This document shows, piece after piece, positions 6,731 to 29,192 of a stretch of 64,000 bases of DNA (its first letter is position 1; each line of letters opens with the position of its first letter). The position numbers and the translations under genes were made by a program. The notes under the pieces were generated by a model, which did no database searches, had not been told where the DNA came from, and was given only the letters and a program-made list of their open reading frames with translations. This DNA is from Candidatus Woesearchaeota archaeon (GTDB taxonomy: Archaea > Nanobdellota > Nanobdellia > Woesearchaeales > DSVV01). The stretch is taken from NCBI GenBank assembly GCA_018657385.1, contig JABHXF010000023.1, positions 1,297 through 65,296 on the forward strand, given 5' to 3'.

Positions 6731-6816
6731 TCTAATTATTTTTAATAACCACTATTAAATAGATATAATAGTTAGTAAAATATATAAATCAATTTAATAA
6801 ATATACTATTATTACT

Positions 6817-12800: not shown

Positions 12801-13497
12801 TAATAGTGATTGTAGCTCTGGATATTGTAATGTGGGGACTTGTCAACAACCAACTTGTGATGATGGTATTAAGAATGGGGTTGAAATTGGTGTTGATTGT
12901 GGTGGAAGTTGTTTAGGTGAATGTGATATTCCAGTTGGTGGGGAAGTAGATGAAGATTGTTATGATGGTATAAAAAATCAAGATGAAGAAGGAATTGATT
13001 GTGGTGGTGCTTGTAGTAATTGTGAAGAAGCACCAGAACCAGTTGAACCTAAGGATGATTCATCATTCTGGTGGGTATGGTTAATTTTATTATTAATTAT
13101 TACAGGTCTTGCAGGTGGAGGGTATTATTATTATCAAAGTGTTTTCCTAAAACACACACCATTGAATAAGACGCAAACAAGAGCACAACAAATTCAACAA
13201 TCTCAAAGAACTCAACAACCACAACAAGTATGGGGTTCTACAAAAAAATCTCAAAGACAAAGAGTAACTTCCTCTATTTCACCAACTAAATCAACTCTAC
13301 AATCAATCTCACAAAGTTTAGGGGCTACATCTAATACTTTTTCTAAACCAAGTTATAGTAAAAGAAGACAACAAAAACAAAACAAAAGAAATGCAATTTT
13401 AAAAGCATTTGATGAAAAACCTAAAAAGAATGAAAGCAAAATCAAATTAAAATTAAAAGATCTGGATGATAAGTCACCAAAGACTAAGAAAAAATAA
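6817..13497 (+). CDS. Giant mosaic surface adhesin-like protein (2226 aa) with C-terminal TM anchor and cytoplasmic Q/S/K-rich tail
   Basis: 6.7-kb ORF with signal MKFKKGLILIVLVLAILIPFSLA. DNDEDG/DEDGDG acidic loops flanked by Cys lie at 7195-7360. Six modules each start with D-x-[TK/SA/TQ]-P/F-type boundaries (DITPP, DIKPP, DTTPP, DNSAP, DTTQF, DVTPP) across ~9540-12540. An FN3-like segment lies at 12271-12520. Four CGG-type Cys repeats lie at 12568-13029. The TM helix FWWVWLILLLIITGLAGGGYYYY lies at 13066-13134, followed by a ~120-aa basic tail. Confidence 0.85.
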   Translation: MKFKKGLILIVLVLAILIPFSLAEQCYIPSAKTCETIDEDFTLEMCENTVEDGGAEGKIAVDECDTGCCCEFHQLDDSYTASTGYFKETCTEISNNLFFKDIPWVTLCEQQCQELTDILQAEGGLPACMDSIDNDEDGLIDMADIDCLSKEDTSEHPSAEDTECSNTVDEDGDGLLDYFGLYEDGGSYSDYLDAGILPDPCCTKEFGVSELCDFPECDVGNNTELCTCGGNVCGFPWQIEGNEDYDYENKKDLDPYSKYVTGSYCCNGQCSFTPCGDCIEGQETFKKTAEGLETYTCECDSDGVCAYGEPVITKLGFPEYCIDSLGFDGYGMDEDEDNKPNCLDTDCFGVSCSNEPLNVENKFPGGLVIPPKTCSFDKNKYPDYFNPITAKEEPIAYYDANIETWVCCFPDSNKKSRVKDCNDDSVPDTCGECACLNSHKEAQQLTVDHVLGKQQLNISYFFACQHEDIRLKLMRCDNIPAQCGVVNGEVQLENSNLFTDISDGLTCDLLDNGIVQEDQENCLTEDGLLQPGLLTDFVGLFDNNIQTKKHYTYIMKSIYPDGIVSFSDPVHIETGNNQICFDNTGHFCIRDEDFHEDSAKYRYYCDDNNDLHGGQDADDEYICNDNEVCVEYLTGSSGKETTCQTKMPCIFCGSPFNTYGFIDNAMIDLTTFPDGFMELNKEDFNPDCTISELCYYDYTDTIKDAYEDCSRVDNCYDYRSEDACQGYAGEQNNKCLTHSCTWNATKMDLIDDLDDALSGLDINVGYCHDPDENVKNCQLCNKLSNNEVFAYCSIDMCRGFTTDDTDCYFNSTMECDSSNHLTCTNYNQGYPGNFNKIRTDCLGEYEQPLVLDIIHDQNDKPIWGTNAVKVKGNDLLGFGVCDFDESQQKCFKDGNDDNKTDPKGKKGSDITPPVTEVIAPANSDKIELKFAINDPIVDGRYHSDPEDIKTYYCFPSDNHIPEVIQDGLMEGNLPGYSDFESYNYDGDGFLTEKELGECYPNNLYKPDEDPLIPNGNGYHKVFYYSIDEAKNIEEVKSFLFNVDIKPPEITITPYVTNDLSAPYDDTQILFSVELDESAKECYDIFEDYVGVKEINYEGGQYFQAKYTGLKDASYLYTVVCTDFLDNTINKSITVKIDADQEIQSPQPTGVLDYSPVNLEIITLKQGDCRFGQSSTFALLTSFGEPEQISTGPSLYKYTHQLSLEEQGLQKYRVMCQFPGLSGEREDEIQFVLDTTPPTTRLTDPKGNDFNTSQWYSGEHSGDMAYLQCVDEPEFGFGCDELQTHYCLQKGSLKCPTRLEFPGQEKDTSYPLYTPVNIPNIPDEQWLCYHSGELTDNNMGGLIEDKTCVKLLMDSSQGPDINVPLLKQYTDLTNPFFYGSPVLEQGITVAFLLEGEVIDGDAATSPPDNKLNIQVYPLSEDYLVGVALLTALTEEIALLEENQEFEIGDLGASELFEDIPSNNAFSQEINLMPGLNKILLEAVDRSGEWTSKEYYIMVSPFNGELLEILEPPKGVSKEKEFDLIVKTSDDLPPPEKCMLSQNKNIGYNYEMEQIEPRKFKNHFNLSGMISGIYYTTFIRCDFPGGISDETFVDIIWDNSAPAIAKFFINPSDGKEPPAVVEPPFVTNLTVVTDDKTRCKYSKTPGTDYFSMTPFDDYETKNLSYVNEHKLTNLIDGQQYTYYVRCDNGPTEPASTHISEESVLTFMVDTTQFTGFELITPEKFTSDTSIDFELHTTKQASDCTFGPEEETVDLYLMETVASGVDAFKVHYGGPISLLEGEHTFYFKCLTLSEGHVMDNYKFSIDVTPPSLAIKTDPYTSSLSTLSASWEGEEEYSEVEEYNYSIGTEPGLANIYEWDNTADLNEKENNLNLSNETTYYWNVIAMNSVGLWSDIVSSNGTYVDSTYNPGYETFEDNVAVCANSIKDLGESDLDCGGNCGSCSNGKNCEVNNDCVSSQCISGICVGSSCDDGILNQQEADIDCGGPCISCDNGMDCDVNSDCSSGYCNVGTCQQPTCDDGIKNGVEIGVDCGGSCLGECDIPVGGEVDEDCYDGIKNQDEEGIDCGGACSNCEEAPEPVEPKDDSSFWWVWLILLLIITGLAGGGYYYYQSVFLKHTPLNKTQTRAQQIQQSQRTQQPQQVWGSTKKSQRQRVTSSISPTKSTLQSISQSLGATSNTFSKPSYSKRRQQKQNKRNAILKAFDEKPKKNESKIKLKLKDLDDKSPKTKKK
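12568..13029 (+). repeat. Four tandem Cys-rich modules, consensus C-[DY]-DG-I-x-N-x-x-E-x-x-[IV]-DCGG-x-C, inside the 2226-aa ORF
   Basis: Read from the translation: ...SDLDCGGNCGSCSNGKNCEVNNDCVSSQCISGICV / CDDGILNQQEADIDCGGPCISCDNGMDCDVNSDCSSGYCNVGTC / CDDGIKNGVEIGVDCGGSCLGEC / CYDGIKNQDEEGIDCGGACSNCE. Confidence 0.8.
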
Positions 13498-13522: not shown

Positions 13523-13993
13523 ATGAAATCACAAGTTCAACAAATGTTTTTTTATATTTTGGCATTATTTGTAATTGGAATGATTTTATTATTGGGGATT
13601 AAGTATGTTGGAAAAATAGTAGAACAAATAGAAACAATTGATTTAGTAGAATTTAAGACTAGCTTAATTGATGATTCCGATGTTATGTTATCTAAATATG
13701 GTAGTTGGCAGAAAAAGTCATATACTGTTCCAGAAGGTGTTAAAAAAGTATGTTTTTTCACGATTAATGAAGATCAACACCCCTGTGTTGGAGATTTAGA
13801 TTTTATCATGTGCGATGCATGGAACGACGGGACACAAAATGTCATGACTATTCCTTGGTCAGATACTTCAATAAACCTTACAAAGATGACTGTTGATAGT
13901 ACAAAAGATTATTTGTGTTTTGATGCTATTGACAGAAAAATTACAATTAGGATGACAGGTAAAGGTAATGGTGTTTTAATATCAGTGCCATAA
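13523..13993 (+). CDS. Prepilin-like protein (156 aa), candidate minor pilin
   Basis: The N-terminus is MKSQVQQMFFYILALFVIGMILLLG (K-S-Q followed by a hydrophobic helix). A GGTG Shine-Dalgarno lies 8 nt upstream. The gap to the giant ORF is only 25 nt. Confidence 0.7.
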   Translation: MKSQVQQMFFYILALFVIGMILLLGIKYVGKIVEQIETIDLVEFKTSLIDDSDVMLSKYGSWQKKSYTVPEGVKKVCFFTINEDQHPCVGDLDFIMCDAWNDGTQNVMTIPWSDTSINLTKMTVDSTKDYLCFDAIDRKITIRMTGKGNGVLISVP

Positions 13994-14106
13994 CCTTATT
14001 ATATGTAATTTAATTGTGCTTAATTTAATTATCTCTATTTTTGTCATGCACAATTTAATTATGTATTGTTATTAATATTATTAAGACTAGAAAAACTAAA
14101 TACAAA

Positions 14107-15189
14107 ATGAAGCATTCTAAAAAAGCGGTAATTGAAATGCAATTCAATTGGATATTTATCTTTGTAGTTGGCTCTGTTATTTTATTGTTTTTTGTGTTTA
14201 TTGGTAAATCATACATGGAAAGTTCCAATATGAAACTATCAGGTAAAATCCTATTTGAAATAGATTCAATTATGAAAGGTGCAAGTTCATCTTCAAAATC
14301 ATCATCTGAATTAGAAATACCAAAATTGGAGTTGGGATTTACTTGTTATCCTGAATGTAGTGAAGAAGGTTGTGATTCTGGGTTTGCTATTGGAAACACG
14401 GGAGTAAATAAACCAACTCCTCATGATATTATTTTTGCCCCAAGTGAAATCAAGAGTGATTTTTTATATACATGGACCTTAGATTGGACATCACCATTTA
14501 GAGTTGGAAATTTTCTTTATTTAACAAGTCCATCAATAAGGTATGTATTTGTTTATAATGAGGATTATTCTATGTCTAAAACCATGGCTGAAAAAATATA
14601 TAACTTATTTTTAGATAATGAATTTATTACTGTTGATTTATACAGCGAAGAAGAATTAATGGATGACTTTGAAGCCACTAATCATAAACATGTAAGATTT
14701 GTTTTCTTTTATACATTTGAAGATGATCTTGACTTAGATATTGGCAAATCTGATTTTGATTTAGTTATTTTTAGTGATCCTAATCCAAACTTTAATGGTC
14801 ATGTATTGTTTTTAAGTGAAGATATGGCTGCAGAAACAGGTGATTTTGATGATTCTGTTGGTTATTTTGGAAAAGAATCAATGGTCGGTGCAATTTTTTC
14901 AGAAAATCAAGATTTTTTCGTTTGTAATATGCATAAGGCATTTAATAGTTTAGAAAGAATATTTGGGATTTATAAGATAAAAGCCCTTTACTTAAAGACT
15001 CAAGCAGGTGCATGCGGTGGCATTTATGAAAATTTTGCTGCCTTTCCTCTTCCTGAAAATTTTCAATATCCAAGTAGTTTTGAAGAAGGTGATTATGAGA
15101 AAATATCTAGTTTATTAAAATCTATGTCATCATCAGCAGAAAAAGCAAACAAAAATGCAATATTTAACTCATGTCCTAGACTTTATTAA
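14107..15189 (+). CDS. Prepilin-like protein (360 aa), candidate minor pilin
   Basis: The N-terminus is MKHSKKAVIEMQFNWIFIFVVGSVILLFFVFIG (K-A-V-I-E followed by a hydrophobic helix). It is co-directional with the rest of the cluster. Confidence 0.65.
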   Translation: MKHSKKAVIEMQFNWIFIFVVGSVILLFFVFIGKSYMESSNMKLSGKILFEIDSIMKGASSSSKSSSELEIPKLELGFTCYPECSEEGCDSGFAIGNTGVNKPTPHDIIFAPSEIKSDFLYTWTLDWTSPFRVGNFLYLTSPSIRYVFVYNEDYSMSKTMAEKIYNLFLDNEFITVDLYSEEELMDDFEATNHKHVRFVFFYTFEDDLDLDIGKSDFDLVIFSDPNPNFNGHVLFLSEDMAAETGDFDDSVGYFGKESMVGAIFSENQDFFVCNMHKAFNSLERIFGIYKIKALYLKTQAGACGGIYENFAAFPLPENFQYPSSFEEGDYEKISSLLKSMSSSAEKANKNAIFNSCPRLY

Positions 15190-15229
15190 CTAATTAAATT
15201 ATATCACTCAAGAAAATAATACAAGAAAA

Positions 15230-15748
15230 ATGAAAAAAACAAAATCACAATTAAAAATAGGCGAATCAATAATGGTTTTAATTATTTTTTTCATTATTTT
15301 AATGGTTGGTTTAGTTTTTTATGCTAAAGTTCAAAGTCATATTGCGATTAAGGATGCAGAGGAATTTAATGCAAAAAGAACAATTGATATGGCATTATCA
15401 GTTAAGTTTATGCCTGAACTACAATGTACTGTACAATCAACAGAACAATTTGATTGTATTGATTTATTAAAAATAAATGCTTTTAAAGCAATTATGCTAA
15501 ACACTGAAAAACAAAGTTATAGAAGATATTATGCAAGGATGTTTCCCAATGCAAAAATTACTATCAAACAATCTTTTGTTCCATTTGGAGAAGGTATTGA
15601 AGGTGGAGAAATAATGTTATTTGATAATACATATGTTGATGAGGTAAATGCATCAGGTGTAATAAAAATGTCCATACCTGTAACTATTTTTGATCCAATT
15701 AGGGATTCAAACAGCTTTGGATTTATTGTACTTGATACTTATAGTTAA
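15230..15748 (+). CDS. Prepilin-like protein (172 aa), candidate minor pilin
   Basis: The N-terminus is MKKTKSQLKIGESIMVLIIFFIILMVGLVFYA. The gap to the previous ORF is 40 nt. Confidence 0.65.
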   Translation: MKKTKSQLKIGESIMVLIIFFIILMVGLVFYAKVQSHIAIKDAEEFNAKRTIDMALSVKFMPELQCTVQSTEQFDCIDLLKINAFKAIMLNTEKQSYRRYYARMFPNAKITIKQSFVPFGEGIEGGEIMLFDNTYVDEVNASGVIKMSIPVTIFDPIRDSNSFGFIVLDTYS

Positions 15749-15806
15749 TATTAATCTCCTAATCAATAATATACCAAACTTAATATATTAAACAAGAAAA
15801 TTAAAA

Positions 15807-16406
15807 ATGAATACAACAACAAAAGCACAAACAGAAATCATGGGGTTAATGATTATTGTAGTTATTATTACATTAATTATTTTGTTTGTTATTTCTGTTG
15901 TTTATTTTAAACCAGTAGACGATCCTTTAAACAGCTTTATCCAGAAAGATCTTTCAACAGGTATAATCAGTGCTATGTTAAAAACAGATTCAGGATGTAC
16001 AAAAGATACCACACTAGAAGATTTGTTTATAGACATTACTAAAACTCCACTTGGTACAATTCAATGTACTTCTGAATTAACTAATGTTTTAAGTGCAAGA
16101 TATCCAGATAATGAATTTTGTCAAGATATTATTATGAGCCGAGGTGCTCTAGAGTGTGGTGTTTCTCAAATCTTGTATACTTTACAAATAGACATTAATC
16201 GGCCATATCATTTTAAGGTCAAAAGTAATGATAATAAATTTCTAGAAACAGATGGTCTTATTCCTTTTCCACCAAGTAAATATTTAGAAGAAGAATTTTC
16301 AAGGGCAACAAGTGTTGATGTTACTCCATATTCATTACCTCTTTATCCTAGTATCGATGTTTTAGAAATTTGGTTGTGTATAGGTGGTGAATGTCCAAAT
16401 ATTTAA
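15807..16406 (+). CDS. Prepilin-like protein (199 aa), candidate minor pilin
   Basis: The N-terminus MNTTTKAQTEIMGLMIIVVIITLIILFVISVVYF carries K-A-Q-T-E. This resembles the K-G-Q-x-S-x-E start of euryarchaeal DUF361-type pilins. Confidence 0.7.
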   Translation: MNTTTKAQTEIMGLMIIVVIITLIILFVISVVYFKPVDDPLNSFIQKDLSTGIISAMLKTDSGCTKDTTLEDLFIDITKTPLGTIQCTSELTNVLSARYPDNEFCQDIIMSRGALECGVSQILYTLQIDINRPYHFKVKSNDNKFLETDGLIPFPPSKYLEEEFSRATSVDVTPYSLPLYPSIDVLEIWLCIGGECPNI

Positions 16407-16560
16407 TATTTGTTTTAATTAAGACTTGTTTTAATTAAAATGGTTATTTAAGTTAAAGTATACATAATATTTATATATAAGGATGGTAATAATAAGGATA
16501 TAACATGGATTATTATAATATTTAATAAACATAAATAAACATAACAAATGAGGTGAAAAA

Positions 16561-16839
16561 ATGTTTAAAAAAGGAGATATATCACTTAATATGATTATTA
16601 TTGCAATAATTGCATTATTGGTGTTAGTTATTATTGCAGCTGTATTTACAGGTAGATTAGCAATGTTTAATGTTGGGATATCTGATTGTAATTCAATTAA
16701 AAATGCACAATGTATTTTTGAATGTGGTGATGGTTTTGTGGCACATCCAACAGGTAAATGTTTAGATGATGGAAAGAAAGTTCCAGATGTAAAATGTTGT
16801 ATTCCTGTGGATTATTCAGAAATAGATGAATATTCTTGA
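16561..16839 (+). CDS. Small prepilin-like protein (92 aa, six Cys), candidate major pilin
   Basis: The N-terminus is MFKKGDISLNMIIIAIIALLVLVIIAAVFTG (K-G-D followed by a hydrophobic helix). A strong SD (GAGGTGA) lies 6 nt upstream. It has its own AT-rich upstream region with TATA-like ATTTATATATA (~16470) and a T-rich tract right after the stop. The short globular part has 6 Cys, including VKCCIPV. Confidence 0.7.
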   Translation: MFKKGDISLNMIIIAIIALLVLVIIAAVFTGRLAMFNVGISDCNSIKNAQCIFECGDGFVAHPTGKCLDDGKKVPDVKCCIPVDYSEIDEYS

Positions 16840-19208: not shown

Positions 19209-19330
19209 TCAATAAACTCTAACAAATTATTATAATCACCCATAAACTCTCATATACTATTCTAAACACTCATGGGCCATCATAATCTCATATTAATACG
19301 TCTATGGATATACATAATAGAAATTGAATA

Positions 19331-19340
19331 AATATATATA
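19331..19340 (+). promoter_or_regulatory. TATA-like box for the 19363 ORF
   Basis: AATATATATA is centred about 27 nt upstream of the ATG at 19363. Confidence 0.45.
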
Positions 19341-19362
19341 TCCTAATGGGATTTATTTTTTT

Positions 19363-20676
19363 ATGTTAGATAAAGCTAAAATTATTCAATTAATAGGTCT
19401 AAAGGGGTTAGTTATTCCTAAGGATTTAATGAGTGAGTTTAATGCAGATACATTTATTATTGGGGCAACTTTATCTGAATTAGTAAGGGATGGTAAGCTT
19501 AAATTAACAACTGTAAAAATAGGTGGTAGTCCTTTTTATTATCTTCCAAATCAAATCGCTAAACTACAGGAATTAAATAAATATCTAAATGAAAAAGATC
19601 AGAGGGCATTTAATCTATTAAAAGAGAAGAAAGTACTAAAAGATTCTGAATTAACCCCTATACAGAGGGTATCAATGAGAGCTATTAAAGATTTTGCTCA
19701 ACCTATTGAAGTAAAAACACAAGAATCAACTGAAATATTCTGGAGATGGTATTTATTAACTCATCAAGAATGTATAGACTTAATTAAAGAAAATTATTTT
19801 CAAGAACAAAAGCAGCCAATAGTGCCATTACAATCAACTCCACAACAAATTCCTGTTAAAACAACCTCTTTACAACATACTCCACACACTACTTCAACTC
19901 CCCCAACCTCCCAAATTTCTCAAACTCCTTCAACTAATTTAACATCTTCAACTTTTCAAACAACTTCAAATGTTCAAACCCCTCCAACCCAAAAAAATTC
20001 AATACACCAAACACAGATTAACCAACCACTAACCAAACACCAACCAATCAAACAACAAGCAACATCTTCTCCTTTATTAACTCAACAACAACCAAATATA
20101 CAATCAGGAACTAAAGGGCATCTAGAAACCAAAGAACAATCTGAAATAAAACCAACTATTAAGGAGAAAATAAAAGCAGTTTTTGATGATATGACAAAAC
20201 AAAAAAAAGAAACCAAAGAAGTCATTAAACCTAAACAAGAAATAAAAAAACCCAAGCGTGAAACAAAGCCACCTCAAATTAAAAAAGTAAAGTCAGAAAC
20301 AAAAGATTCTAATCAGCCAGAAACAACAGATTCTCATCAAAAAACACTTTTTGAGGAACCAACTGGTGAGTTATATAAGAAAACAAAAAAATATTTTAAT
20401 AGAAACAACATTAAGTTAAATAATATAGAAGTTATACGTAAAGATAAGGATATGGATTGTATTGTTGAGATTCCATCTCCAGTTGGTGTTGTTGAATATT
20501 ATTGCAAAATTAAATCAAAGAAAAAATGTAATGATGGTGATCTTGCAACTGCTTACGTTAACGCACAGATGAAAAATTTACCTGCTTTGTTCATAACAAC
20601 TGGTGAAGTTACAAAAAAAGCACAAGAAATGTTAAAAACAAAATTTAAAAATATGAAAATCATAAATCTGAGGTGA
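19363..20676 (+). CDS. wHTH-like N-domain, ~200-aa low-complexity linker and C-terminal Mrr-like (PD-(D/E)xK) domain protein
   Basis: The ATG at 19363 is preferred over the TTG at 19324 because of the TATA spacing. The linker is first T/S/P/Q-rich and then K/E-rich. The C-terminus DMDCIVEIPSPVGVVEYYCKIKSKKKCNDGDLATAYVNAQMKNLPALFITTGEVTKKAQEML resembles the Mrr_cat pattern (D...E/Q-x-K...fiTt..ft..A). Confidence 0.5.
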   Translation: MLDKAKIIQLIGLKGLVIPKDLMSEFNADTFIIGATLSELVRDGKLKLTTVKIGGSPFYYLPNQIAKLQELNKYLNEKDQRAFNLLKEKKVLKDSELTPIQRVSMRAIKDFAQPIEVKTQESTEIFWRWYLLTHQECIDLIKENYFQEQKQPIVPLQSTPQQIPVKTTSLQHTPHTTSTPPTSQISQTPSTNLTSSTFQTTSNVQTPPTQKNSIHQTQINQPLTKHQPIKQQATSSPLLTQQQPNIQSGTKGHLETKEQSEIKPTIKEKIKAVFDDMTKQKKETKEVIKPKQEIKKPKRETKPPQIKKVKSETKDSNQPETTDSHQKTLFEEPTGELYKKTKKYFNRNNIKLNNIEVIRKDKDMDCIVEIPSPVGVVEYYCKIKSKKKCNDGDLATAYVNAQMKNLPALFITTGEVTKKAQEMLKTKFKNMKIINLR

Positions 20677-21434
20677 TATTAATGAATAAAAAAAATATGA
20701 AATATTTAATTGTCATTATTGTTGTTATTATGTTATTATTTATTGGTTGTGCAACCAAACAATATGAATGTCCTAATGGGGATGTTGTAGAGGATATTAC
20801 AACTTGTAATATCAATGGGGAACTTGATGAAACTTCGTCTGAATCAACTACACAACAACAAGAACAATCAACAACACCAGCTGAAACAACTATTTCAGAA
20901 ACAAATAATGGTAATCAATTAACTGATTCTCTTGTAGAAGAACCAATAACAAAAACAATTGGTATTCCACAACTATCATTAACTCAAACACAAAAAGATA
21001 AATTAAATGAATTATTAAATAATAAAAAGTCAATTATTTACCCGCCTATGTTGGGTGTTAATGATCAACTTCCTATTGGTGGCACATATACTTTTGCATA
21101 TGGTATAAAGAATCCAACAGTACTATCAAAAGAGTTTTTTTATTCAATAAAACTTATTGATTCTAAAACTGAATCTTTAAGTAATGCTGGTGCAGATGAT
21201 ACTGTTCTTGATTGGTTTTTACCAAATACTGATTTAGATGCAACATATACTTTAGGGAAAAATGAGATTGTTTATGTCCCTCTTATTGTAGTAATTGGAG
21301 ACAAGATGAATAAAGATGGTAAAAAAACAGTTGATGGTACATATGACTTCAGGGTTACCTCAGAAACTATTGATGGTGTATTTACTGACGACCATCATTA
21401 TACTGATTTTGTTATAAGGGTATCTAATGATTAA
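20673..21434 (+). CDS. Lipobox-containing secreted protein (253 aa)
   Basis: The signal MKYLIVIIVVIMLLFIGC carries an F-I-G-C lipobox. The start is either GTG at 20673, overlapping the previous stop, or ATG at 20682. An S/T/Q/E linker is followed by a beta-rich domain. Confidence 0.6.
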   Translation: MILMNKKNMKYLIVIIVVIMLLFIGCATKQYECPNGDVVEDITTCNINGELDETSSESTTQQQEQSTTPAETTISETNNGNQLTDSLVEEPITKTIGIPQLSLTQTQKDKLNELLNNKKSIIYPPMLGVNDQLPIGGTYTFAYGIKNPTVLSKEFFYSIKLIDSKTESLSNAGADDTVLDWFLPNTDLDATYTLGKNEIVYVPLIVVIGDKMNKDGKKTVDGTYDFRVTSETIDGVFTDDHHYTDFVIRVSND

Positions 21435-22677: not shown

Positions 22678-25600
22678 GTGGTGATTATGGCTGAAGACCC
22701 TCAATCAGGAAGATGGCAGACTTTTAAACAAGGTTTTTCTAATTATAGGGCAGAAAAAAAGCAAGCAAAAAATGCAAATAAAGCAAGTGCTGCTAAGATT
22801 AAGGCTGATATGGATGGAGTCAAAGTTGCAAGGATGGATGAAAACGAAAGAAGACAATTACTACAACAACATCAAGAAGATTTAGACAAATTACAGCCAA
22901 AACGAGCATTTCTAAAAAATCTGTCAGGAAAAGGGGGCACAGCTACCAAAGCAGCCACTCTAGGAATAGGTGCTTGGTTGGGTAGTAAGTTTAAGCGAAA
23001 TTCTGAACCTAAGAAATTTCATGATACTGACAAAGTTTGGAAATGGAGATTTTTTTCTTATATTATTTTATGTATTGTTTGGCATTATGGTCTCTTAATA
23101 CAACTAGAAATCCCACCATTTGGAAAAGCTATGTTAAATATTGTTTTTGCGTTAATCACATATTTCTGGGCTGTTCCACAAGAAGAAAGAACAAGTAATC
23201 GCATATGGGAATTTTTAGTAGTTATTTTCATACTTTATTATTCAGTTGAAGTATTAGGAGTTATGTTAGTTGGAATAGCACCTGCTTCAATTGGTGCATT
23301 TATTCATGGTTGGTTATTAAATCCTTTATTGACACCATGGTGGCTTTTTTATGCACTCTTTGTTAGAGTTCAGGGCAGAGCATGGTTAGGTGATATACCT
23401 ACTATTGTTGTTCTTGTTCTTTATATTACAGCAGGGTTAGGTGTTGGTACTTCTCTTGCTGGTACACCCTTACAAAGTCAATTGTCAGAAAAGGGGTTTA
23501 GTCTTGATAGGACACATATTGAGAATTTTAATGATTTTTTAAGCAGAGCTGCTGATTTCTGGAAATATATTTGGGATAATATTGTTAAATCATTCAAGGG
23601 ATTTAAACTATTTTGGTATAAACGTATTGATATAGCCACAGGTGGAGATTATTATACAGGAAGGGTTGAACAAGCAGAAGATGAACCATTGGGTGTAACA
23701 ATAGAAAATGTTAAAACAGCTGATTATGAATTTGAGACTGATGAAAAAATAGTTGTTTATGGTACTATCAAGGCACATACATTAGATGATGGTATTAGAA
23801 TAAAACCTGGTTGTTTTTTAGGTTATAAAAGAGATTATGAAGAAAAATATATTGAAGGGAATGTAAATGTTGGTCCTTCTAACGATTATTTAGTATTTGA
23901 TATGGATGAACAAGATATGGATTGTATTTTACCTCCAACAGCAGAAGTTAAGGCCATATTAGAAAAATCTAAAACAGTTACATTAACTGCAGAATTTAAT
24001 TTTGAAACAATGGCATATCTTAAAACTTATTTCATGTATCAAGATAGATTAAGAAGTTTACAAAGACAAGGTCTTGATCCATTAAATGAATTTGGTATTA
24101 AAGATAATAATCCTACTGCGGTATTTACTAATGGGCCTGTAATGCTTGGTATTGGTACAAAAAAACCACCTTATGGTGTTGCAATTGCAGGTCTTAGTGG
24201 TTCTTCAGATAATTTGTTAAGGGTTGGAGTAACAGTTGATAATAATTATGGTTGGAAAGGTAAGATTAAAAAAATTAATCAAGTAATAATGGTTGTTCCA
24301 GAAGAATTAGAAATTGTTAATTCTGCTTGTAGTCACGTATTTAATAAATATGCTGACTCTACAAACCTAGACTCCTGTGTTAAAGATTATATTGATTATA
24401 ACAGCAGACCATTTATTGAATGTGCAGACAAGGTATGGCAGGAAGGAGGAGATTACTTTGATAAATATGATAAAGAACATTTAGCACAAGCAAAGATTAA
24501 TAATAATGTTAAGACTTGTGTTAGGAAAGTTTGTACAAAAGAGTATGAGGGTTATATTGGCTATGCATTAAATACTGCCTTTTCTAGTAAAGGTTTAGAA
24601 GATATTGAAAATTATAAAACCTTTAGTTGTAACTTTAAAGTAAGACCAGGTACAGAACAAGATTTATTAGGGACAGCACCTGTTTCTGTAAGGTATTTAA
24701 GGGCTAAGGTTAGATATGATTATGAAATTGAAAAGTCCACAAGTGTTAGAATAAAAAAAGACTATAATAAATATGGTTCAGGTATTATGGACCATTCACA
24801 ATCTTTGTATAGTGATCCGCAAAAAATATATGAAACAGTTGGTCAAAAAACATGGAAATCTATTAATAATAATCCGCATGTAGCTGCTGTTGAACCTTGT
24901 TTAGCTATTGCATTACTAATTGAGGCAAGTGGTGGCCAAGAATATTATAATAAAAATGGTCAACAAGGATTATTTACTTTAAGTCCTAAACTAACTAAAA
25001 AAATAGCAGAAAAATTAGGTGATACAAGCCAAAACTTAATGGATATTGATACAAATATTAAGTATGGTATGGAATTATTAAATGATTTAAAAACAGGAAG
25101 TGTAAATTATTTAGGTGCGGACAATACAATTATTCCTGCAAATGAAAATGAGTTGATGATTCTCTTTAAGGAAGCAGTTACAAATGATCAAGTTAAATAT
25201 GATTCAATTAAACCAAGTGTAAAGGAATCATGCAATCAAGAAAAAGCATATCTTTGTAAAGAAGATCCCTTTTATTCTAAATATCATGGTTATGAATTAA
25301 CAATTGAATCTTTAAAAGATTATTGTAAAAAACCTGGAACACAAGCATTATTAGAGAAGGTAAAAGATTTTGATTTAATTAAGGAAGAAAATCCTAATTT
25401 TTGGTCTCCATTTAAGTCAATTAAGGTTACAAAAGAAACAAAAGATGTAAACCCAAGTTTAGATGAAGATTATGAAGTCAAAGTTACAAAAACATTTAGC
25501 GAAGATAAGAAAAAGATTCAAGTTGGGGTAAAATTAATAAAAGATAATAAAGAAAAATTCTCTAAATCTTTTAATCTTAATCAAGAAAATTCTGCAGATA

Positions 25601-25980
25601 CTGCTTGGTATTATGGTGATAAATATCCTTTTATTAGGGCAAGATTAAAATCTGTAAATTTTGAAACAGGTGATGTTGTTATAGATGTTCAAGATTTTGA
25701 ATTTACTATAAAAAAAGTTGAAATACCTTACAATCCAACATCTCTCAAGAAAGATGTATGGGTTGATAGTTCAACTGAAGAAACAATTGTAAGGGCTCTA
25801 TTTAATAAACCTACAAATACTTTGGTATTTTACGATAATGGAAATAATCAACTTTGCACAATCAAATTGACAACTTCAAAAACATGTGCAAATTTACCAG
25901 AAATAAAAGTATATCAACTTAATGATGTTAATGATGACTGGTTTGAAGGTTATGTTGAGTTTAATCCTCAAAAAGAATAA
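22678..25980 (+). CDS. Polytopic membrane protein (1100 aa) with a ~830-aa ectodomain carrying a lytic-transglycosylase-like segment
   Basis: The N-terminal ~120 aa are basic and presumably cytoplasmic. A hydrophobic block of about 5-6 helices lies at ~23040-23470. A large hydrophilic C-terminal region follows. The start is GTG at 22678 or ATG at 22687. Confidence 0.75.
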   Translation: MVIMAEDPQSGRWQTFKQGFSNYRAEKKQAKNANKASAAKIKADMDGVKVARMDENERRQLLQQHQEDLDKLQPKRAFLKNLSGKGGTATKAATLGIGAWLGSKFKRNSEPKKFHDTDKVWKWRFFSYIILCIVWHYGLLIQLEIPPFGKAMLNIVFALITYFWAVPQEERTSNRIWEFLVVIFILYYSVEVLGVMLVGIAPASIGAFIHGWLLNPLLTPWWLFYALFVRVQGRAWLGDIPTIVVLVLYITAGLGVGTSLAGTPLQSQLSEKGFSLDRTHIENFNDFLSRAADFWKYIWDNIVKSFKGFKLFWYKRIDIATGGDYYTGRVEQAEDEPLGVTIENVKTADYEFETDEKIVVYGTIKAHTLDDGIRIKPGCFLGYKRDYEEKYIEGNVNVGPSNDYLVFDMDEQDMDCILPPTAEVKAILEKSKTVTLTAEFNFETMAYLKTYFMYQDRLRSLQRQGLDPLNEFGIKDNNPTAVFTNGPVMLGIGTKKPPYGVAIAGLSGSSDNLLRVGVTVDNNYGWKGKIKKINQVIMVVPEELEIVNSACSHVFNKYADSTNLDSCVKDYIDYNSRPFIECADKVWQEGGDYFDKYDKEHLAQAKINNNVKTCVRKVCTKEYEGYIGYALNTAFSSKGLEDIENYKTFSCNFKVRPGTEQDLLGTAPVSVRYLRAKVRYDYEIEKSTSVRIKKDYNKYGSGIMDHSQSLYSDPQKIYETVGQKTWKSINNNPHVAAVEPCLAIALLIEASGGQEYYNKNGQQGLFTLSPKLTKKIAEKLGDTSQNLMDIDTNIKYGMELLNDLKTGSVNYLGADNTIIPANENELMILFKEAVTNDQVKYDSIKPSVKESCNQEKAYLCKEDPFYSKYHGYELTIESLKDYCKKPGTQALLEKVKDFDLIKEENPNFWSPFKSIKVTKETKDVNPSLDEDYEVKVTKTFSEDKKKIQVGVKLIKDNKEKFSKSFNLNQENSADTAWYYGDKYPFIRARLKSVNFETGDVVIDVQDFEFTIKKVEIPYNPTSLKKDVWVDSSTEETIVRALFNKPTNTLVFYDNGNNQLCTIKLTTSKTCANLPEIKVYQLNDVNDDWFEGYVEFNPQKE
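24881..25100 (+). other. SLT/lysozyme-like motif region within the 1100-aa protein
   Basis: CLAIALLIEASGGQEYYNKNGQQGLFTLSPKLTKKIAEKLG...NLMDIDTNIKYGMELLNDL aligns by eye to the family-1 lytic transglycosylase core (..ES....G..GLMQ........D...TNI..G..YL). The candidate catalytic Glu codon is at 24922-24924. Confidence 0.45.
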
Positions 25981-26019: not shown

Positions 26020-27057
26020 ATGGAAAAAAATAAATCAAACAAAAAAGCAATTATAATTGGAGTTTCACAACTCTTACTAGTCTTTATTTTATTATTCATT
26101 ACATCATGTGGTGATGGTGGAGAAACACACACAATTGATTTAGATTTTCATAAGGGTACAAAAGGTGTTGAGTTTGATGTTTTAGGAGTCATGGGTGAGA
26201 TTTACGAAGATACTGCATTTAAAATTATAATTAATGTTTTTAATAATGGTGCTTATGATCTTCCTGAAGCAAATGGTGGTTATGTTAATTTAAATCTTGA
26301 AGAAGATTATATGTGTCTTTCTGATGGCCAGAATTGTTTAACCACACAAAATGCAGGTGCTGCTATTAAACCATTAGGATACCTTAAAGGGAAATCTATT
26401 TTTAATCCATCTGGTGATTTTGAGATTCTTGAATATTATGTTCATGTTAAAGATATTGATAAACAAAGTTTTCAACATACAAGTAATGTTGGTATAAGTT
26501 TATGTTACCAATATCAAACAGATTTAATTACAGATATTTGTATTGATCCTTATTTTTATGAGCAATCAACAATAGAAAAACCATGTGTTGTTAAGGACTT
26601 AACTTTTTCAGGACAAGGTGCCCCATTAGTTGTTACAAAAATTGAAAACAAAATGTTATCTGATGGGAAAGATAGTGTAAGGCCAATGTTTATTATCCAT
26701 GTTTCTAAAACAGGAGATGGAGAAATAATTAATAAGGAAATGGTTAACAAAGTGTGTACAGCAGATCCTCTTGGACCAAATGCTTTTAATGTTGTTCATC
26801 TTCGTGAGCTAGAATTTATGGTTGGTAATACTCTCTATAAACACGACATAAACAATGAAAATTCAAATCTTAAATGTAATTTTTTAAATAAGAAAAGTGA
26901 AACAAAACTTAATCAAGGTAAGGCAAAAATAAAATGCACTGCAATAAAACCAATCAATAAAGATAGTGGTACTTTTTCAACACAATTAAAAATGATATTT
27001 GATTATGGGTATACTTATTCAAAATCAAAATCAGTTGTAATAAAACGTTTATATTAA
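26020..27057 (+). CDS. Lipobox surface protein, paralog 1 of 3 (345 aa)
   Basis: The signal LLVFILLFITSC carries a lipobox. Motifs are shared with the next two ORFs (IIINVFNNGAYDLP; SLCYQYQTDLITDICIDP; SGQGAPLVVTKIE; FIIHVSKTGDGEII). Confidence 0.7.
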   Translation: MEKNKSNKKAIIIGVSQLLLVFILLFITSCGDGGETHTIDLDFHKGTKGVEFDVLGVMGEIYEDTAFKIIINVFNNGAYDLPEANGGYVNLNLEEDYMCLSDGQNCLTTQNAGAAIKPLGYLKGKSIFNPSGDFEILEYYVHVKDIDKQSFQHTSNVGISLCYQYQTDLITDICIDPYFYEQSTIEKPCVVKDLTFSGQGAPLVVTKIENKMLSDGKDSVRPMFIIHVSKTGDGEIINKEMVNKVCTADPLGPNAFNVVHLRELEFMVGNTLYKHDINNENSNLKCNFLNKKSETKLNQGKAKIKCTAIKPINKDSGTFSTQLKMIFDYGYTYSKSKSVVIKRLY

Positions 27058-27106
27058 TTAAATATACCAAATTAAAATTCAAGCAATTCGAAAAAACATA
27101 ATAAAA

Positions 27107-28045
27107 ATGAAGTCAAATAATATCAATTCCACAATTAAAAGATACAATAAATTATTATTGTTATTACTTTTATTAGTTTCAATTTTAATTATTTCATGTA
27201 GTGGCTCTCCTAAACAAGGTGACCTTATGCATGGTAGTAAAGGTATTGAATTAGAAGTGAAATATTTCAAACCAAATCACCAGTTTGTACATGGTGAGTT
27301 TATGAACTTATTTATTGAGGTTATGAACAAAGGAGTTTATGATAACCCTACCGGGTTTATTAAAATAATTGGCCATGATTCAAATGCCATTTCTTTTAAA
27401 GAAACAAAGAAAGATCTTCCATCCCTAGTTGGTAAAAAACCATATATACCAGAAGGGGATTCATTTATTTTAAAATTTGAAGAAACTGCCCCATTAAATG
27501 TTCCTTATGGTTCATCTCATCAATCAAATTTATTAATTTCTGCTTGTTATAATTATCAAACAAATGCAATTGTTACTGTATGTATTCCTACACTTAAAGA
27601 ATATGCAGAAGGTTCACCTGTATGTAAGACTGGAGCAAAAAGCTTATCTTCTCAGGGTGCACCAGTAGCTGTTACATATATTGAACCAAGTGTTGGGGCA
27701 GATGAATTACAATATATTATTCATGTTTCTAATGTTGGAGATGGGGTAATTATTAAAGAGGATATGTTAAGTAATTGCCCATCTGAAATCGGTCCTTCAG
27801 ATATTGATGAAGTCAGAATTGATGTACAAATCTCAGCTTTAGGAACAGCAACATGTACAAATAATAATCTAATCAAGTTATATGATGGTAACGGTGCAAC
27901 AATTTGTAGAATTAAGAAAGGTACAGGTGATGTTAGCTATGAAACTCAAATGGGTATCTTATTAAATTATGCATATACTTCTTCAATAAAAGAAAGTATT
28001 AACATAGTAGATCCATTTTATACTGGTAAGGAGAAATATGAATGA
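27107..28045 (+). CDS. Lipobox surface protein, paralog 2 of 3 (312 aa)
   Basis: The signal LLLVSILIISC carries a lipobox. Motifs: FIEVMNKGVYDNP; SACYNYQTNAIVTVCIP; SSQGAPVAVTYIE; YIIHVSNVGDGVII. Confidence 0.7.
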   Translation: MKSNNINSTIKRYNKLLLLLLLLVSILIISCSGSPKQGDLMHGSKGIELEVKYFKPNHQFVHGEFMNLFIEVMNKGVYDNPTGFIKIIGHDSNAISFKETKKDLPSLVGKKPYIPEGDSFILKFEETAPLNVPYGSSHQSNLLISACYNYQTNAIVTVCIPTLKEYAEGSPVCKTGAKSLSSQGAPVAVTYIEPSVGADELQYIIHVSNVGDGVIIKEDMLSNCPSEIGPSDIDEVRIDVQISALGTATCTNNNLIKLYDGNGATICRIKKGTGDVSYETQMGILLNYAYTSSIKESINIVDPFYTGKEKYE

Positions 28046-28256
28046 TTGAAAACCAAGAAAATCCAGTAAAATAATCAAAATTGCCTAATATAACTAAAAT
28101 TAATCAATAATTAACCAAAAACTATATATATAGTTTAACATAATATTTATATACTCACATATAAGATAACATAAATATAATAAAAGTATAATAGTGATAT
28201 TATTTAAAATAACATAACTAAAAAATAATTAAAAAAGAAAAAAGAGGAGGATATAT

Positions 28257-29192
28257 ATGAAAATAATAAAATATTTATTACTAATTTTAGTTTTAATGTC
28301 TTTATTGTTTGTTAGTTGTACAGGCAATAGAAGAGAATCAGGTGTTGCAGCTCCATTCTATGGTGGGAGTGAAGGTTTAATTGGGGAATTTGAAGATATA
28401 GGTTCTTTATTAAGTCAATCTGGTTATCCTGAGATTTGGGAAGACCAAGGTATCCCTATTCAAGTAAGAATTTTTAATAGAGGTGAATATACTCTTCCTT
28501 CAAATTCAGTTCAGTTTAAAATTAAAGGAATTAAAATTCCTGAAGATTTTCAAGGTGCAGAGGCAATGAAGACAAATCTTAATGAAATTGAAAAAGTTTC
28601 TGAGTATCTTACAGAAGGTGGCGATGAATTAGTTGACTTTGGTGAGGCGTATTATGTTAAGGGTGTTAAAGGCACATTTTATGATGCTAATGTTTTTATT
28701 GAATATACTTATCCATATGAACAAACTGTTATTGTTCCTAAAGTTTGTTTTAAAGGAGATCCTTATGATGAAACTATTTGTGAAGTTGATGAATCTAAAC
28801 AAGCCTATATCTCTGGCGGACCATTTCAAATGGGTTCAGTAGTTCAAAGACCTGCTGGTAAAGGTAGAATTAGTCTTGAAATCCCTATTAGAAATGTAGG
28901 TGGTGGAAAAGCTAAGAAAGAAGATAGCATGTTTGAAGACTTCTCTCCTTTATATGATGAGCTAATTATGGAAGTTCCAGATGGTTGGGAATGCTCAGCA
29001 AAAGGTGGCGGCGATACAGTTAGAGTTAATAGAAATGGTGAAACTGTTATCAGATGTAAATATGGTTTTTATGGTGCACCAATCCCAGAAACAGATGTTT
29101 ATACAAGTGCATTTGATTTAAAAGTTTATTACATCTATTGGGACTTTGTATCGCAAACAGTTAGGATCAGGGAAAACCCAGAATTAAATTAA
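28257..29192 (+). CDS. Lipobox surface protein, divergent paralog 3 of 3 (311 aa)
   Basis: The signal LVLMSLLFVSC carries a lipobox. A GAGGAGG SD is present. Motifs: IQVRIFNRGEYTLP; IEYTYPYEQTVIVPKVCF; ISGGPFQMGSVVQ; LEIPIRNVGGGKA. Confidence 0.65.
   Translation: MKIIKYLLLILVLMSLLFVSCTGNRRESGVAAPFYGGSEGLIGEFEDIGSLLSQSGYPEIWEDQGIPIQVRIFNRGEYTLPSNSVQFKIKGIKIPEDFQGAEAMKTNLNEIEKVSEYLTEGGDELVDFGEAYYVKGVKGTFYDANVFIEYTYPYEQTVIVPKVCFKGDPYDETICEVDESKQAYISGGPFQMGSVVQRPAGKGRISLEIPIRNVGGGKAKKEDSMFEDFSPLYDELIMEVPDGWECSAKGGGDTVRVNRNGETVIRCKYGFYGAPIPETDVYTSAFDLKVYYIYWDFVSQTVRIRENPELN

What the first reader, a model, noticed from the sequence alone, without database searches (positions are those of the whole stretch)
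24881..25100. Lytic-transglycosylase-like (SLT/lysozyme-like) segment in an archaeal membrane protein
LAIALLIEASGG...GQQGLFTLSPKLTKKIAEKLG...NLMDIDTNIKYGMELLNDL lines up by eye with the family-1 SLT core of E. coli Slt70 (AIARQES...GASGLMQIMPGT...LLDPETNINIGTSYLQ). The match includes a candidate catalytic Glu, although here it is E-A-S rather than E-S. Archaea have no murein. A surface-exposed murein-cleaving domain in a reduced archaeon would suggest interaction with, or attack on, a bacterial partner, or cleavage of another glycan. Bacterial pilus and secretion systems commonly recruit dedicated lytic transglycosylases. That makes its location about 6 kb from a pilin-rich locus noteworthy.
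Basis: partly seen in the sequence, partly recalled or inferred. Interest (0 to 1): 0.65.

Follow-up and report, generated by a model that had tools for sequence, protein, structure and literature searches.

The report
Inactive-looking murein-cutter domain, archaeal surface protein
A large membrane-anchored surface protein of a marine Woesearchaeota archaeon really does contain a bacterial-type cell-wall-cutting (SLT/lysozyme-like) domain, but the residues needed for cutting have been lost, so it probably acts as a structural or binding module, not as a weapon against bacteria.

Summary
Window 24881-25100 lies in a 1097-aa gene (22687-25980, +). This segment passes the Pfam SLT threshold (22.8 bits against a cut-off of 21.3; 26.1 for the domain alone). 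A family profile matches MltE, Slt70, MltC and MltF, and the AlphaFold model (pLDDT 87.7) matches family-1 lytic transglycosylases.

The proposed catalytic Glu does not hold. In every alignment the catalytic Glu of MltE and LtgA falls on Ala750, the residue just before the invariant Ser. Glu749 is one position too early and is A, D or H in the nearest orthologues. The Gln of GLMQ and the AYNxG motif are also gone. More distant orthologues keep all three motifs. The domain is still as conserved as the rest of the protein, so it looks like a retained pseudo-enzyme.

The SLT and C-terminal module is a variable add-on. It is absent, intact or degenerate in different lineages. The core is a multi-pass membrane protein with Ig-like ectodomains, followed by three paralogous lipoprotein genes. 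That operon is conserved across Woesearchaeota in a housekeeping neighbourhood.

The link to pilin genes is not conserved. Large SLT-domain proteins in Woese-/Pacearchaeota are already published, so novelty is modest.

The parts
22687..25980 (+). Gene for a 1097-aa multi-pass membrane surface protein. Residue numbers below count from the GTG at 22678, which gives 1100 aa.
   Evidence: ORF. The called start and an identical protein (P0001) occur on 24 or more metagenome contigs. There are 16 close homologues, all Woesearchaeota or metagenomic. 658 clusters at 50% identity match at E<1e-30.
22687..23016 (+). Lys/Arg/Glu-rich N-terminal region, predicted cytoplasmic
   Evidence: Sequence. It is the least conserved region, with 33% identity within the clade.
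23017..23463 (+). Membrane domain of about 5 TM helices, with the conserved kinked motif LNPxLTPWW(F/L)YYA
   Evidence: Hydropathy and AF2 helices. N215, P216, T219 and W222 are invariant or nearly invariant. Loop charges fit an N-in/C-out topology (inference).
23464..24792 (+). Long stalk helix, then the conserved central ectodomain: two beta-sandwich (Ig-like) domains with a Cys-rich helical insert. The FNFETMAYLKTYF and TNGP motifs lie here.
   Evidence: AF2 model with pLDDT 74.7 overall and 85-95 in the beta domains. Foldseek returns only generic Ig-like or adhesin-type matches. It is the most conserved region, with 65.7% identity within the clade.
24796..25329 (+). SLT/GH23 lysozyme-like domain (residues 707-884), with a degenerate active site
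   Evidence: Pfam SLT hit, PDB profile hits, AF2 model and Foldseek.
24922..24930 (+). Remnant of motif I: Glu749-Ala750-Ser751. Ala750 sits in the catalytic-Glu column.
   Evidence: Alignments to MltE (AIESGG) and LtgA (RQESRF). Family census.
24967..24981 (+). Remnant of motif II: G-L-F-T-L (canonical G-L-M-Q). The Gln is replaced by Thr.
25330..25977 (+). C-terminal domain of unknown fold that accompanies this type of SLT domain. It has a conserved PF(I/V)R motif and two invariant Cys.
   Evidence: Alignment A1. No Pfam or NCBIfam hit.
26020..27057 (+). Lipoprotein paralogue A (lipobox ...ITSC)
   Evidence: Conserved directly downstream in orthologous loci.
27107..28045 (+). Lipoprotein paralogue B (lipobox ...IISC)
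28257..29192 (+). Lipoprotein paralogue C (lipobox ...FVSC)

Best explanation
The segment is a genuine family-1 lytic-transglycosylase (SLT, GH23, lysozyme-like) domain. It was inherited as part of a C-terminal extension of a conserved Woesearchaeota cell-surface protein. In the window's lineage it has lost the catalytic Glu and the other signature residues. It therefore most likely no longer cleaves murein, and persists as a non-catalytic structural or ligand-binding module.

Shown: the fold, the residue substitutions, their conservation pattern and the operon structure. The protein has a cytoplasmic N-terminus, about 5 TM helices, a stalk helix, two Ig-like beta-sandwich domains, the dead SLT domain and a C-terminal domain. 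It is encoded with three paralogous lipoproteins.

Inferred: the outward-facing topology, that the four products form one envelope complex, and that the SLT relic contributes by binding or scaffolding and not by catalysis.
For: Fold and homology.

Active-site loss:
- The catalytic Glu of MltE and LtgA aligns with Ala750.
- In the 7 representatives of the window clade this column is A, T or I. The preceding residue is E, A, D or H, so it is not conserved.
- The motif II Gln is T, S or G, and AYNxG is absent.
- P0008-P0032 and others keep E-S, GLMQ and AYNxG.

Maintenance: the SLT region shows 46.9% pairwise identity within the clade. That is similar to the TM region (44.7%) and the C-terminal region (41.8%). 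Two further Cys pairs are conserved.

Dispensability of catalysis for the core function: orthologues at the same locus lack the SLT module entirely (P0012, 650 aa; compare). Only 12 of 64 GTDB loci carry this SLT type. 16 of 53 SLT-bearing representatives lack the Glu, in two groups on a central-domain tree.

Operon: all 43 GTDB loci with enough flank have lipoprotein-family ORFs directly downstream. 32 have three, 8 have two, 2 have one and 1 has four. The same holds. The neighbours are housekeeping genes.
Against: No biochemical data exist. Glu749 is present in the window and its closest relative, and a shifted acid cannot be excluded from sequence alone. I could not inspect the model coordinates to see where Glu749 points. 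The Pfam score is only just above threshold. That the four gene products form a complex is inferred from synteny only. No transcript evidence was found. The lost motif II and III residues are also substrate-binding residues in Slt70 (established knowledge), so glycan binding may be weakened too.
Confidence: 0.62

Rival explanations
1. The domain is still an active lytic transglycosylase or muramidase. It would use Glu749, shifted by one residue, as the general acid, and attack the murein of a bacterial partner.
For: Glu749 sits next to the canonical position in the window and in P0002. The fold and the S-G-G and N-I-x-x-G elements are retained. Intact relatives exist, and the literature reads them as murein-degrading (PMC8204110, PMC9723730).
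Against: Glu749 is A, D, A, A or H in the other clade members, while the domain stays conserved. A one-residue shift at the end of a helix turns the side chain by about 100 degrees (inference). The motif II Gln and motif III are also lost.
Confidence: 0.1
2. The domain cleaves or remodels a different glycan, such as chitin-like GlcNAc polymers, a host archaeal wall polymer or its own envelope glycan. It would use a different catalytic arrangement.
For: GH23 members and g-type lysozymes act on related beta-1,4 GlcNAc-containing glycans (established knowledge). MltE-E64Q binds chitopentaose (PDB 4hjy, listed). The domain is under constraint.
Against: No conserved acidic residue replaces the Glu among the clade-invariant columns of the N-terminal lobe. 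Those invariants are C35, S45, G46, G47, G58, L62, P64, A71, N80, I88, G91, L94, D97 and K99. Only D97 is acidic, and it lies in the LLNDLK helix after the N-I-x-x-G motif. No glycan-synthesis genes are linked to the operon.
Confidence: 0.12
3. The SLT segment is a decaying relic with no function of its own, carried along as a spacer.
For: Loss of all three catalytic or substrate motifs. Complete absence of the module in many orthologues.
Against: The region is as conserved as the TM and C-terminal regions across 7 representatives that share only 37-65% identity overall. 22 columns are invariant, including four Cys. The fold is predicted with confidence. A second lineage also keeps a Glu-less domain.
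Confidence: 0.1
4. It is a specialised lytic transglycosylase recruited by the nearby pilus locus, like VirB1 or EtgA, or it is part of a prophage or mobile element (tape-measure-type SLT).
For: Pilin-like genes with class-III-signal-like N-termini lie about 6 kb upstream. A phage tape-measure SLT appears among weak PDB hits (9b45, E 0.0016).
Against: Orthologous loci have DNA polymerase D, acylphosphatase, Pelota or AMP-binding genes upstream instead of pilins. The gene lies among FEN1, RFC, aIF2-beta, TyrRS and a ribosomal operon. No phage genes are present.
Confidence: 0.03

Closest known systems
E. coli MltE (EmtA) and other family-1 lytic transglycosylases (Slt70, MltC, MltF, Neisseria LtgA); Pfam SLT PF01464, CAZy GH23
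   Same: Same lysozyme-like helical fold and same order of motifs. Retained elements are the Ser after the catalytic position, the S-G-G turn, the Gly of GLMQ and the N-I-x-x-G element.
   Different: The catalytic Glu is replaced by Ala. The Gln of GLMQ is replaced by Thr. AYNxG is absent. There are extra conserved Cys pairs. The domain is embedded in a 1100-aa archaeal multi-pass membrane protein and is not a periplasmic or lipoprotein enzyme.
[quoted passage not shown] 2021, fam00969/module 98, PMC8204110; Vigneron et al. 2022, PMC9723730; AR20 in Castelle 2015 as cited there)
   Same: Same phylum, same kind of large surface protein with an SLT domain. Orthologues P0008 and P0014 are annotated 'transglycosylase SLT domain-containing protein [Ca. 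Woesearchaeota]'.
   Different: The published reading is an active murein-degrading enzyme that indicates bacterial hosts or predation. In the window's clade the active site is degenerate, and standard annotation gives no SLT call: the precomputed Pfam column is '-' for P0001-P0007. I could not check whether this exact protein belongs to fam00969.
Secretion- or pilus-associated specialised lytic transglycosylases (VirB1, EtgA, FlgJ-type)
   Same: SLT fold. A pilin-like locus lies within 6-9 kb in this genome.
   Different: There is no conserved linkage to pilus or secretion genes. The architecture is different, and the catalytic Glu these enzymes require is absent.
MSCRAMM-type bacterial surface adhesins (ClfB, SdrE, CNA). 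Structural resemblance of the central region only.
   Same: Tandem Ig-like beta-sandwich ectodomains (Foldseek E 1e-5 to 1e-4).
   Different: TM-scores are very low (0.1-0.2) and there is no sequence similarity. This is a generic fold class, not evidence of homology.

Membership tests
Pfam SLT (PF01464) / GH23 family-1 lytic transglycosylase | Significant match to the family HMM above the curated threshold | tested here: met
   22.8 bits against GA 21.3, E 6.9e-5. Domain alone: 26.1 bits. Profile-to-PDB matches to MltE, Slt70 and LtgA.
Pfam SLT (PF01464) / GH23 family-1 lytic transglycosylase | Lysozyme-like alpha-helical fold superposable on solved LTs | tested here: met
   AF2 pLDDT 87.7. 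Foldseek top 50 are all LTs, with probability 1.0 for nearly all (0.96-0.99 for three) and TM 0.5-0.66 for the best.
Pfam SLT (PF01464) / GH23 family-1 lytic transglycosylase | Catalytic Glu immediately before the conserved Ser (motif I, E-S) | tested here: not met
   Ala750 occupies the column, and Glu749 aligns to Ile of MltE and Gln of LtgA. The clade has A, T or I at this position.
Pfam SLT (PF01464) / GH23 family-1 lytic transglycosylase | Motif II G-L-M-Q and motif III A-Y-N-x-G (substrate-binding residues; motif definitions from established literature on family-1 LTs) | tested here: not met
   The window has GLFTL and VKYDSI. E-retaining orthologues have GLMQ and AYNxG.
Pfam SLT (PF01464) / GH23 family-1 lytic transglycosylase | Cleavage of MurNAc-GlcNAc bonds with 1,6-anhydroMurNAc formation | not testable with these tools
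   Needs biochemistry.
DPANN large extracellular SLT-domain proteins (Castelle 2021 fam00969) | Encoded by Woese-/Pacearchaeota; large protein carrying an SLT domain; predicted extracellular | tested here: met
   Names of homologues, titles of GTDB loci, archaeal housekeeping neighbours, and topology with conserved Cys.
DPANN large extracellular SLT-domain proteins (Castelle 2021 fam00969) | Membership of the published cluster itself | not tested
   The family's member list was not accessed.
Pilus/secretion-system-dedicated lytic transglycosylases (VirB1/EtgA type) | Conserved genomic linkage to the pilus or secretion apparatus | tested here: not met
   Pilin-like genes are near only in the window. 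They are absent from orthologous loci.

The most novel reading that the evidence does not exclude
The conserved four-gene module is the core cell-surface attachment apparatus of Woesearchaeota. It consists of a multi-pass membrane protein with Ig-like ectodomains plus three ancient lipoprotein paralogues. The C-terminal GH23 module is an exchangeable host-wall-targeting head. It is catalytic in lineages that live on bacteria, absent in others, and converted to a non-catalytic binding module in this widespread marine lineage. If so, the state of this one domain would report host type, or a switch away from murein-walled hosts.
Probability: 0.15. Interest if true: 0.7.

Novelty: new variant of a known kind. 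Interest (0 to 1): 0.36.

Why it matters
SLT-domain proteins are repeatedly cited as genomic evidence that some Woesearchaeota attach to or prey on bacteria. This analysis shows that presence of the domain is not enough. In two sizeable lineages, including this globally distributed marine one, the catalytic Glu is gone while the domain is kept. The domain is also only an optional extension of a much more widespread envelope operon of unknown function. Together these findings caution against calling 'peptidoglycan degradation' from a GH23 or SLT hit alone. They also point to a conserved four-gene surface module as a better target for understanding DPANN cell-cell contact.

Tried and rejected
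- Single-sequence phmmer of the domain against PDB gave only chance hits (E about 2). Profiles were needed.
- NCBIfam: no hit.
- Rfam and tRNA scans of the window: nothing.
- A second word-indexed homologue search with the alignment returned the same 16 proteins.
- Central ectodomain: Foldseek gave only generic Ig-like matches with TM below 0.2, so no family was assigned.
- Lipoprotein paralogues: no Pfam hit, no PDB sequence relatives, and hhalign against the central domain was not significant (probability 0.9%).
- tblastn for a second family copy in the window: none.
- HMM scan for any other SLT-like region in the window: none.
- Metatranscriptome evidence: no RNA run holds the gene.
- Cluster names added little.
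- Prophage or mobile-element origin and pilus-associated LT were considered and rejected on synteny.
- The short 610-650-aa proteins were first taken for paralogues. Their loci show they are orthologues lacking the SLT module.

Full report
**What is at the coordinates.** Window 24881-25100 lies inside a single long + strand ORF, 22678..25980. Public gene calls start it at the ATG at 22687, giving 1097 aa. An essentially identical protein (P0001) is found on at least 24 metagenome contigs, and the same DNA is present in 20 or more marine or seawater metagenome runs. I number residues from the GTG, so the motif is Glu749-Ala750-Ser751 (GAG GCA AGT, 24922-24930).

**Is the SLT resemblance more than chance? 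Yes.**
- Pfam SLT (PF01464) matches residues 738-806 with 22.8 bits against a gathering score of 21.3 (E 6.9e-5). The isolated domain gives 26.1 bits (E 6.5e-6).
- A single-sequence search of PDB found nothing.
- A profile of the region from 11 family members hits MltE/EmtA (E 7.7e-11), Neisseria LtgA, Pseudomonas Slt, E. coli Slt70 (5e-9), MltC, MltF and g-type lysozymes.
- A profile built only from the window's own clade still finds LtgA at E 4e-4.
- AlphaFold2 on residues 707-884 gave pLDDT 87.7 and pTM 0.86. Foldseek against PDB returned lytic transglycosylases throughout the list shown, with probability at or near 1.0 and TM up to 0.66.
It is not met, so the fold assignment stands.
- Precomputed annotation lists no Pfam domain for P0001-P0007.

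**The organism and the neighbourhood.**
- The neighbours are archaeal housekeeping genes: aIF2-beta, FEN1, RFC small subunit, a TrmB regulator, TyrRS/TrpRS-type synthetase, PAN-like AAA ATPase, Trm5 and a ribosomal-protein operon.
- All named homologues are Candidatus Woesearchaeota. A scan of GTDB species genomes gave 64 loci, mostly titled Woesearchaeota, Nanoarchaeota or Nanoarchaeia.
- This is core chromosome, not a prophage or plasmid.

**The active site.**
- In the MAFFT alignments, in hmmalign and in both HMMER alignments to solved enzymes, the catalytic Glu aligns with the residue immediately before the invariant Ser. The reference motifs are MltE ...AIESGG... and LtgA ...RQESRF....
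- In the window that residue is Ala750. Glu749 aligns with Ile of MltE and Gln of LtgA.
- Glu749 is not conserved among the closest relatives. The hexapeptide reads IEASGG (window, P0002), AATSGG (P0003, P0005), ADTSGG (P0004), TAISGG (P0006) and VHTSGG (P0007).
- In the same clade, the Gln of motif II (G-L-M-Q) is T, S or G, and motif III (A-Y-N-x-G) is absent.
- More distant full-length orthologues (P0008-P0011, P0014, P0017-P0032 and others) carry canonical E-S, GLMQ and AYNxG.
- That these motifs define family-1 lytic transglycosylases, and that the Glu is the single catalytic acid, is established knowledge. PDB entries for MltE E64Q and Slt E503Q are labelled as inactive mutants.
- A neighbour-joining tree on the central domain puts the seven Glu-less representatives of the window clade together. 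A second group of nine Glu-less representatives has G, L, K, T, I or S at that column. Two Glu-retaining sequences branch between them. In total, 16 of 53 SLT-bearing representatives lack the Glu. The tree is approximate, so I claim only one or more losses.

**Is the domain decaying? No.**
- Within the window clade, mean pairwise identity is 46.9% for the SLT region. The TM region is 44.7%, the C-terminal domain 41.8% and the N-terminal tail 32.9%.
- 22 columns are invariant across six sequences that are only 29-70% identical. They include S-G-G, the Gly of motif II, the N-I-x-x-G element and four Cys.
- The fold is being maintained without its catalytic residues, which is the signature of a pseudo-enzyme.

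**The rest of the protein.**
- Hydropathy and the AF2 model of residues 110-693 indicate five TM helices. The fourth is kinked at the nearly invariant LNPxLTPWW motif.
- The Lys-rich N-terminus and the Arg-containing loops 2-3 and 4-5 fit an N-in/C-out topology. This is inferred from the positive-inside rule.
- The 14 Cys after the last TM helix, most of them invariant, fit an extracytoplasmic location.
- After a roughly 45-residue helix come two beta-sandwich domains with a Cys-rich helical insert (pLDDT 85-95). Foldseek finds only generic Ig-like matches at TM below 0.2, including staphylococcal adhesins, transglutaminase barrels and integrin domains. I assign a fold class only.
- The exhaustive HMMER search found 658 clusters at E<1e-30. 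Most match only the TM and central part. That part is the core of the family.

**The operon.**
- Directly downstream on the same strand are three genes (26020-27057, 27107-28045, 28257-29192). Their products are paralogues (BLASTP 3e-22 and 2e-6). All carry a signal peptide ending in a lipobox-like Cys, which is invariant in 15 sequences.
- The same A-B-C trio follows the orthologous gene in every locus I inspected.
- Among 43 GTDB species loci with at least 4.3 kb of downstream sequence, 32 have three, 8 have two, 2 have one and 1 has four lipoprotein-family ORFs immediately downstream.
- These lipoproteins have no Pfam or PDB relatives.
- The 650-aa protein P0012, which lacks the SLT and C-terminal domains, occupies exactly the same locus as the SLT-intact P0014. 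Both loci read Pelota, AMP-binding enzyme, a ~393-395-aa unknown, the family gene, three lipoproteins, one further small unannotated gene (on the opposite strand), RFC-small, PRC, then a class-I tRNA synthetase (compare). The short forms are therefore orthologues.
- The SLT module is thus a lineage-variable C-terminal extension. This SLT type is present in only 12 of the 64 GTDB loci. Whatever the conserved operon does, it does not need transglycosylase activity.

**The pilin argument.** ORFs at 13523-16839 do have short charged N-termini followed by a hydrophobic helix, like archaeal type IV pilin precursors. They follow three giant ORFs with no annotation. In the orthologous loci, however, the genes upstream are DNA polymerase D, acylphosphatase, aIF2-beta and SpoIIM, or Pelota and an AMP-binding enzyme. 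The proximity is specific to this genome and gives no support for a functional link.

**Most likely mechanism.**
- Shown: a real GH23/SLT fold with a degenerate active site that is nonetheless conserved. It sits in a membrane-anchored protein encoded with three lipoproteins in a widely conserved operon.
- Inferred: the domain faces outward, the four products act together in the envelope, and the SLT relic now serves as a binding or scaffolding module.
- Whether it still binds a glycan is open, because residues that contact substrate in Slt70 are also changed.
- I put about 0.8 on 'not an active lytic transglycosylase' and about 0.6 on the whole statement.

**Comparison with what is known.** Large extracellular SLT-domain proteins of Woesearchaeota and Pacearchaeota have been described and interpreted as murein-binding or murein-degrading. 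They are taken as hints of bacterial hosts or predation (PMC8204110; PMC9723730; also PMC10936187 and PMC12352652). The general idea in the finding is therefore not new. What seems to be new:
- Part of this family, including this abundant marine lineage, carries a catalytically degenerate domain.
- The domain is an optional add-on to a conserved four-gene envelope module.

I found no paper that discusses catalytic-residue loss in these proteins, but the library is not exhaustive.

**Verdict.** The segment is a new variant (pseudo-enzyme) of a known kind. Interest is moderate to low for the finding as stated. Interest is somewhat higher for the caution it raises about reading lifestyle from GH23 hits, and for the conserved operon it exposes.

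Noticed in passing
window 26020-29192: Three tandem paralogous lipoprotein genes (345, 312 and 311 aa) with an invariant lipobox Cys and no Pfam or PDB relatives. They are conserved in the same order downstream of the family gene across Woesearchaeota, which points to an ancient triplication.
   Followed up: yes
window 13523-16839: Five small ORFs (156, 360, 172, 199 and 92 aa) whose N-termini look like archaeal class III (type IV pilin) signal peptides. No Pfam hits.
   Followed up: partly
window 198-13497: Three consecutive giant + strand ORFs (1357, 820 and 2226 aa) upstream of the pilin-like genes. They have no significant Pfam domain, only a sub-threshold EF-hand hit in the largest. They may be surface or fibre proteins.
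   Followed up: no
window 19324-21434: A 450-aa ORF with a long Thr/Ser/Gln/Pro-rich low-complexity linker and a weak Mrr_cat-like C-terminus (E 0.009), followed by an overlapping 253-aa ORF with a lipobox (LFIGC). Unannotated genes of roughly comparable size (about 360-440 aa, then about 230-250 aa) sit at the same position in L001, L004 and L006.
   Followed up: no
L016, L018, L020 and many other GTDB loci; L071: Many MAGs carrying this Woesearchaeota-type operon are titled 'uncultured Methanosarcinales archaeon', and one is titled 'Candidatus Binatia bacterium'. These are probably mislabelled or mis-binned records and not true occurrences outside DPANN.
   Followed up: no
window 1-64000: No tRNA gene and no Rfam family at gathering threshold in 64 kb, although the region is a gene-dense core chromosome that includes a ribosomal-protein operon from about 42.6 kb.
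   Followed up: no
window ~24630 (residue in ...KTFSCNFKV...): The window protein differs from database representative P0001 by at least one residue (Asn in the window, Lys in P0001). This indicates population microdiversity in this widespread marine lineage.
   Followed up: no
family members P0050, P0097, P0104, P0112, P0118, P0128, P0138: Other branches of the same TM-plus-central-domain family carry a different lysozyme-like C-terminal module (...CG(I/V)MQIN..., often with E-S/E-N). It is followed by fibronectin-III-like domains instead of the window's C-terminal domain. Wall-targeting modules may therefore have been acquired or exchanged more than once.
   Followed up: partly
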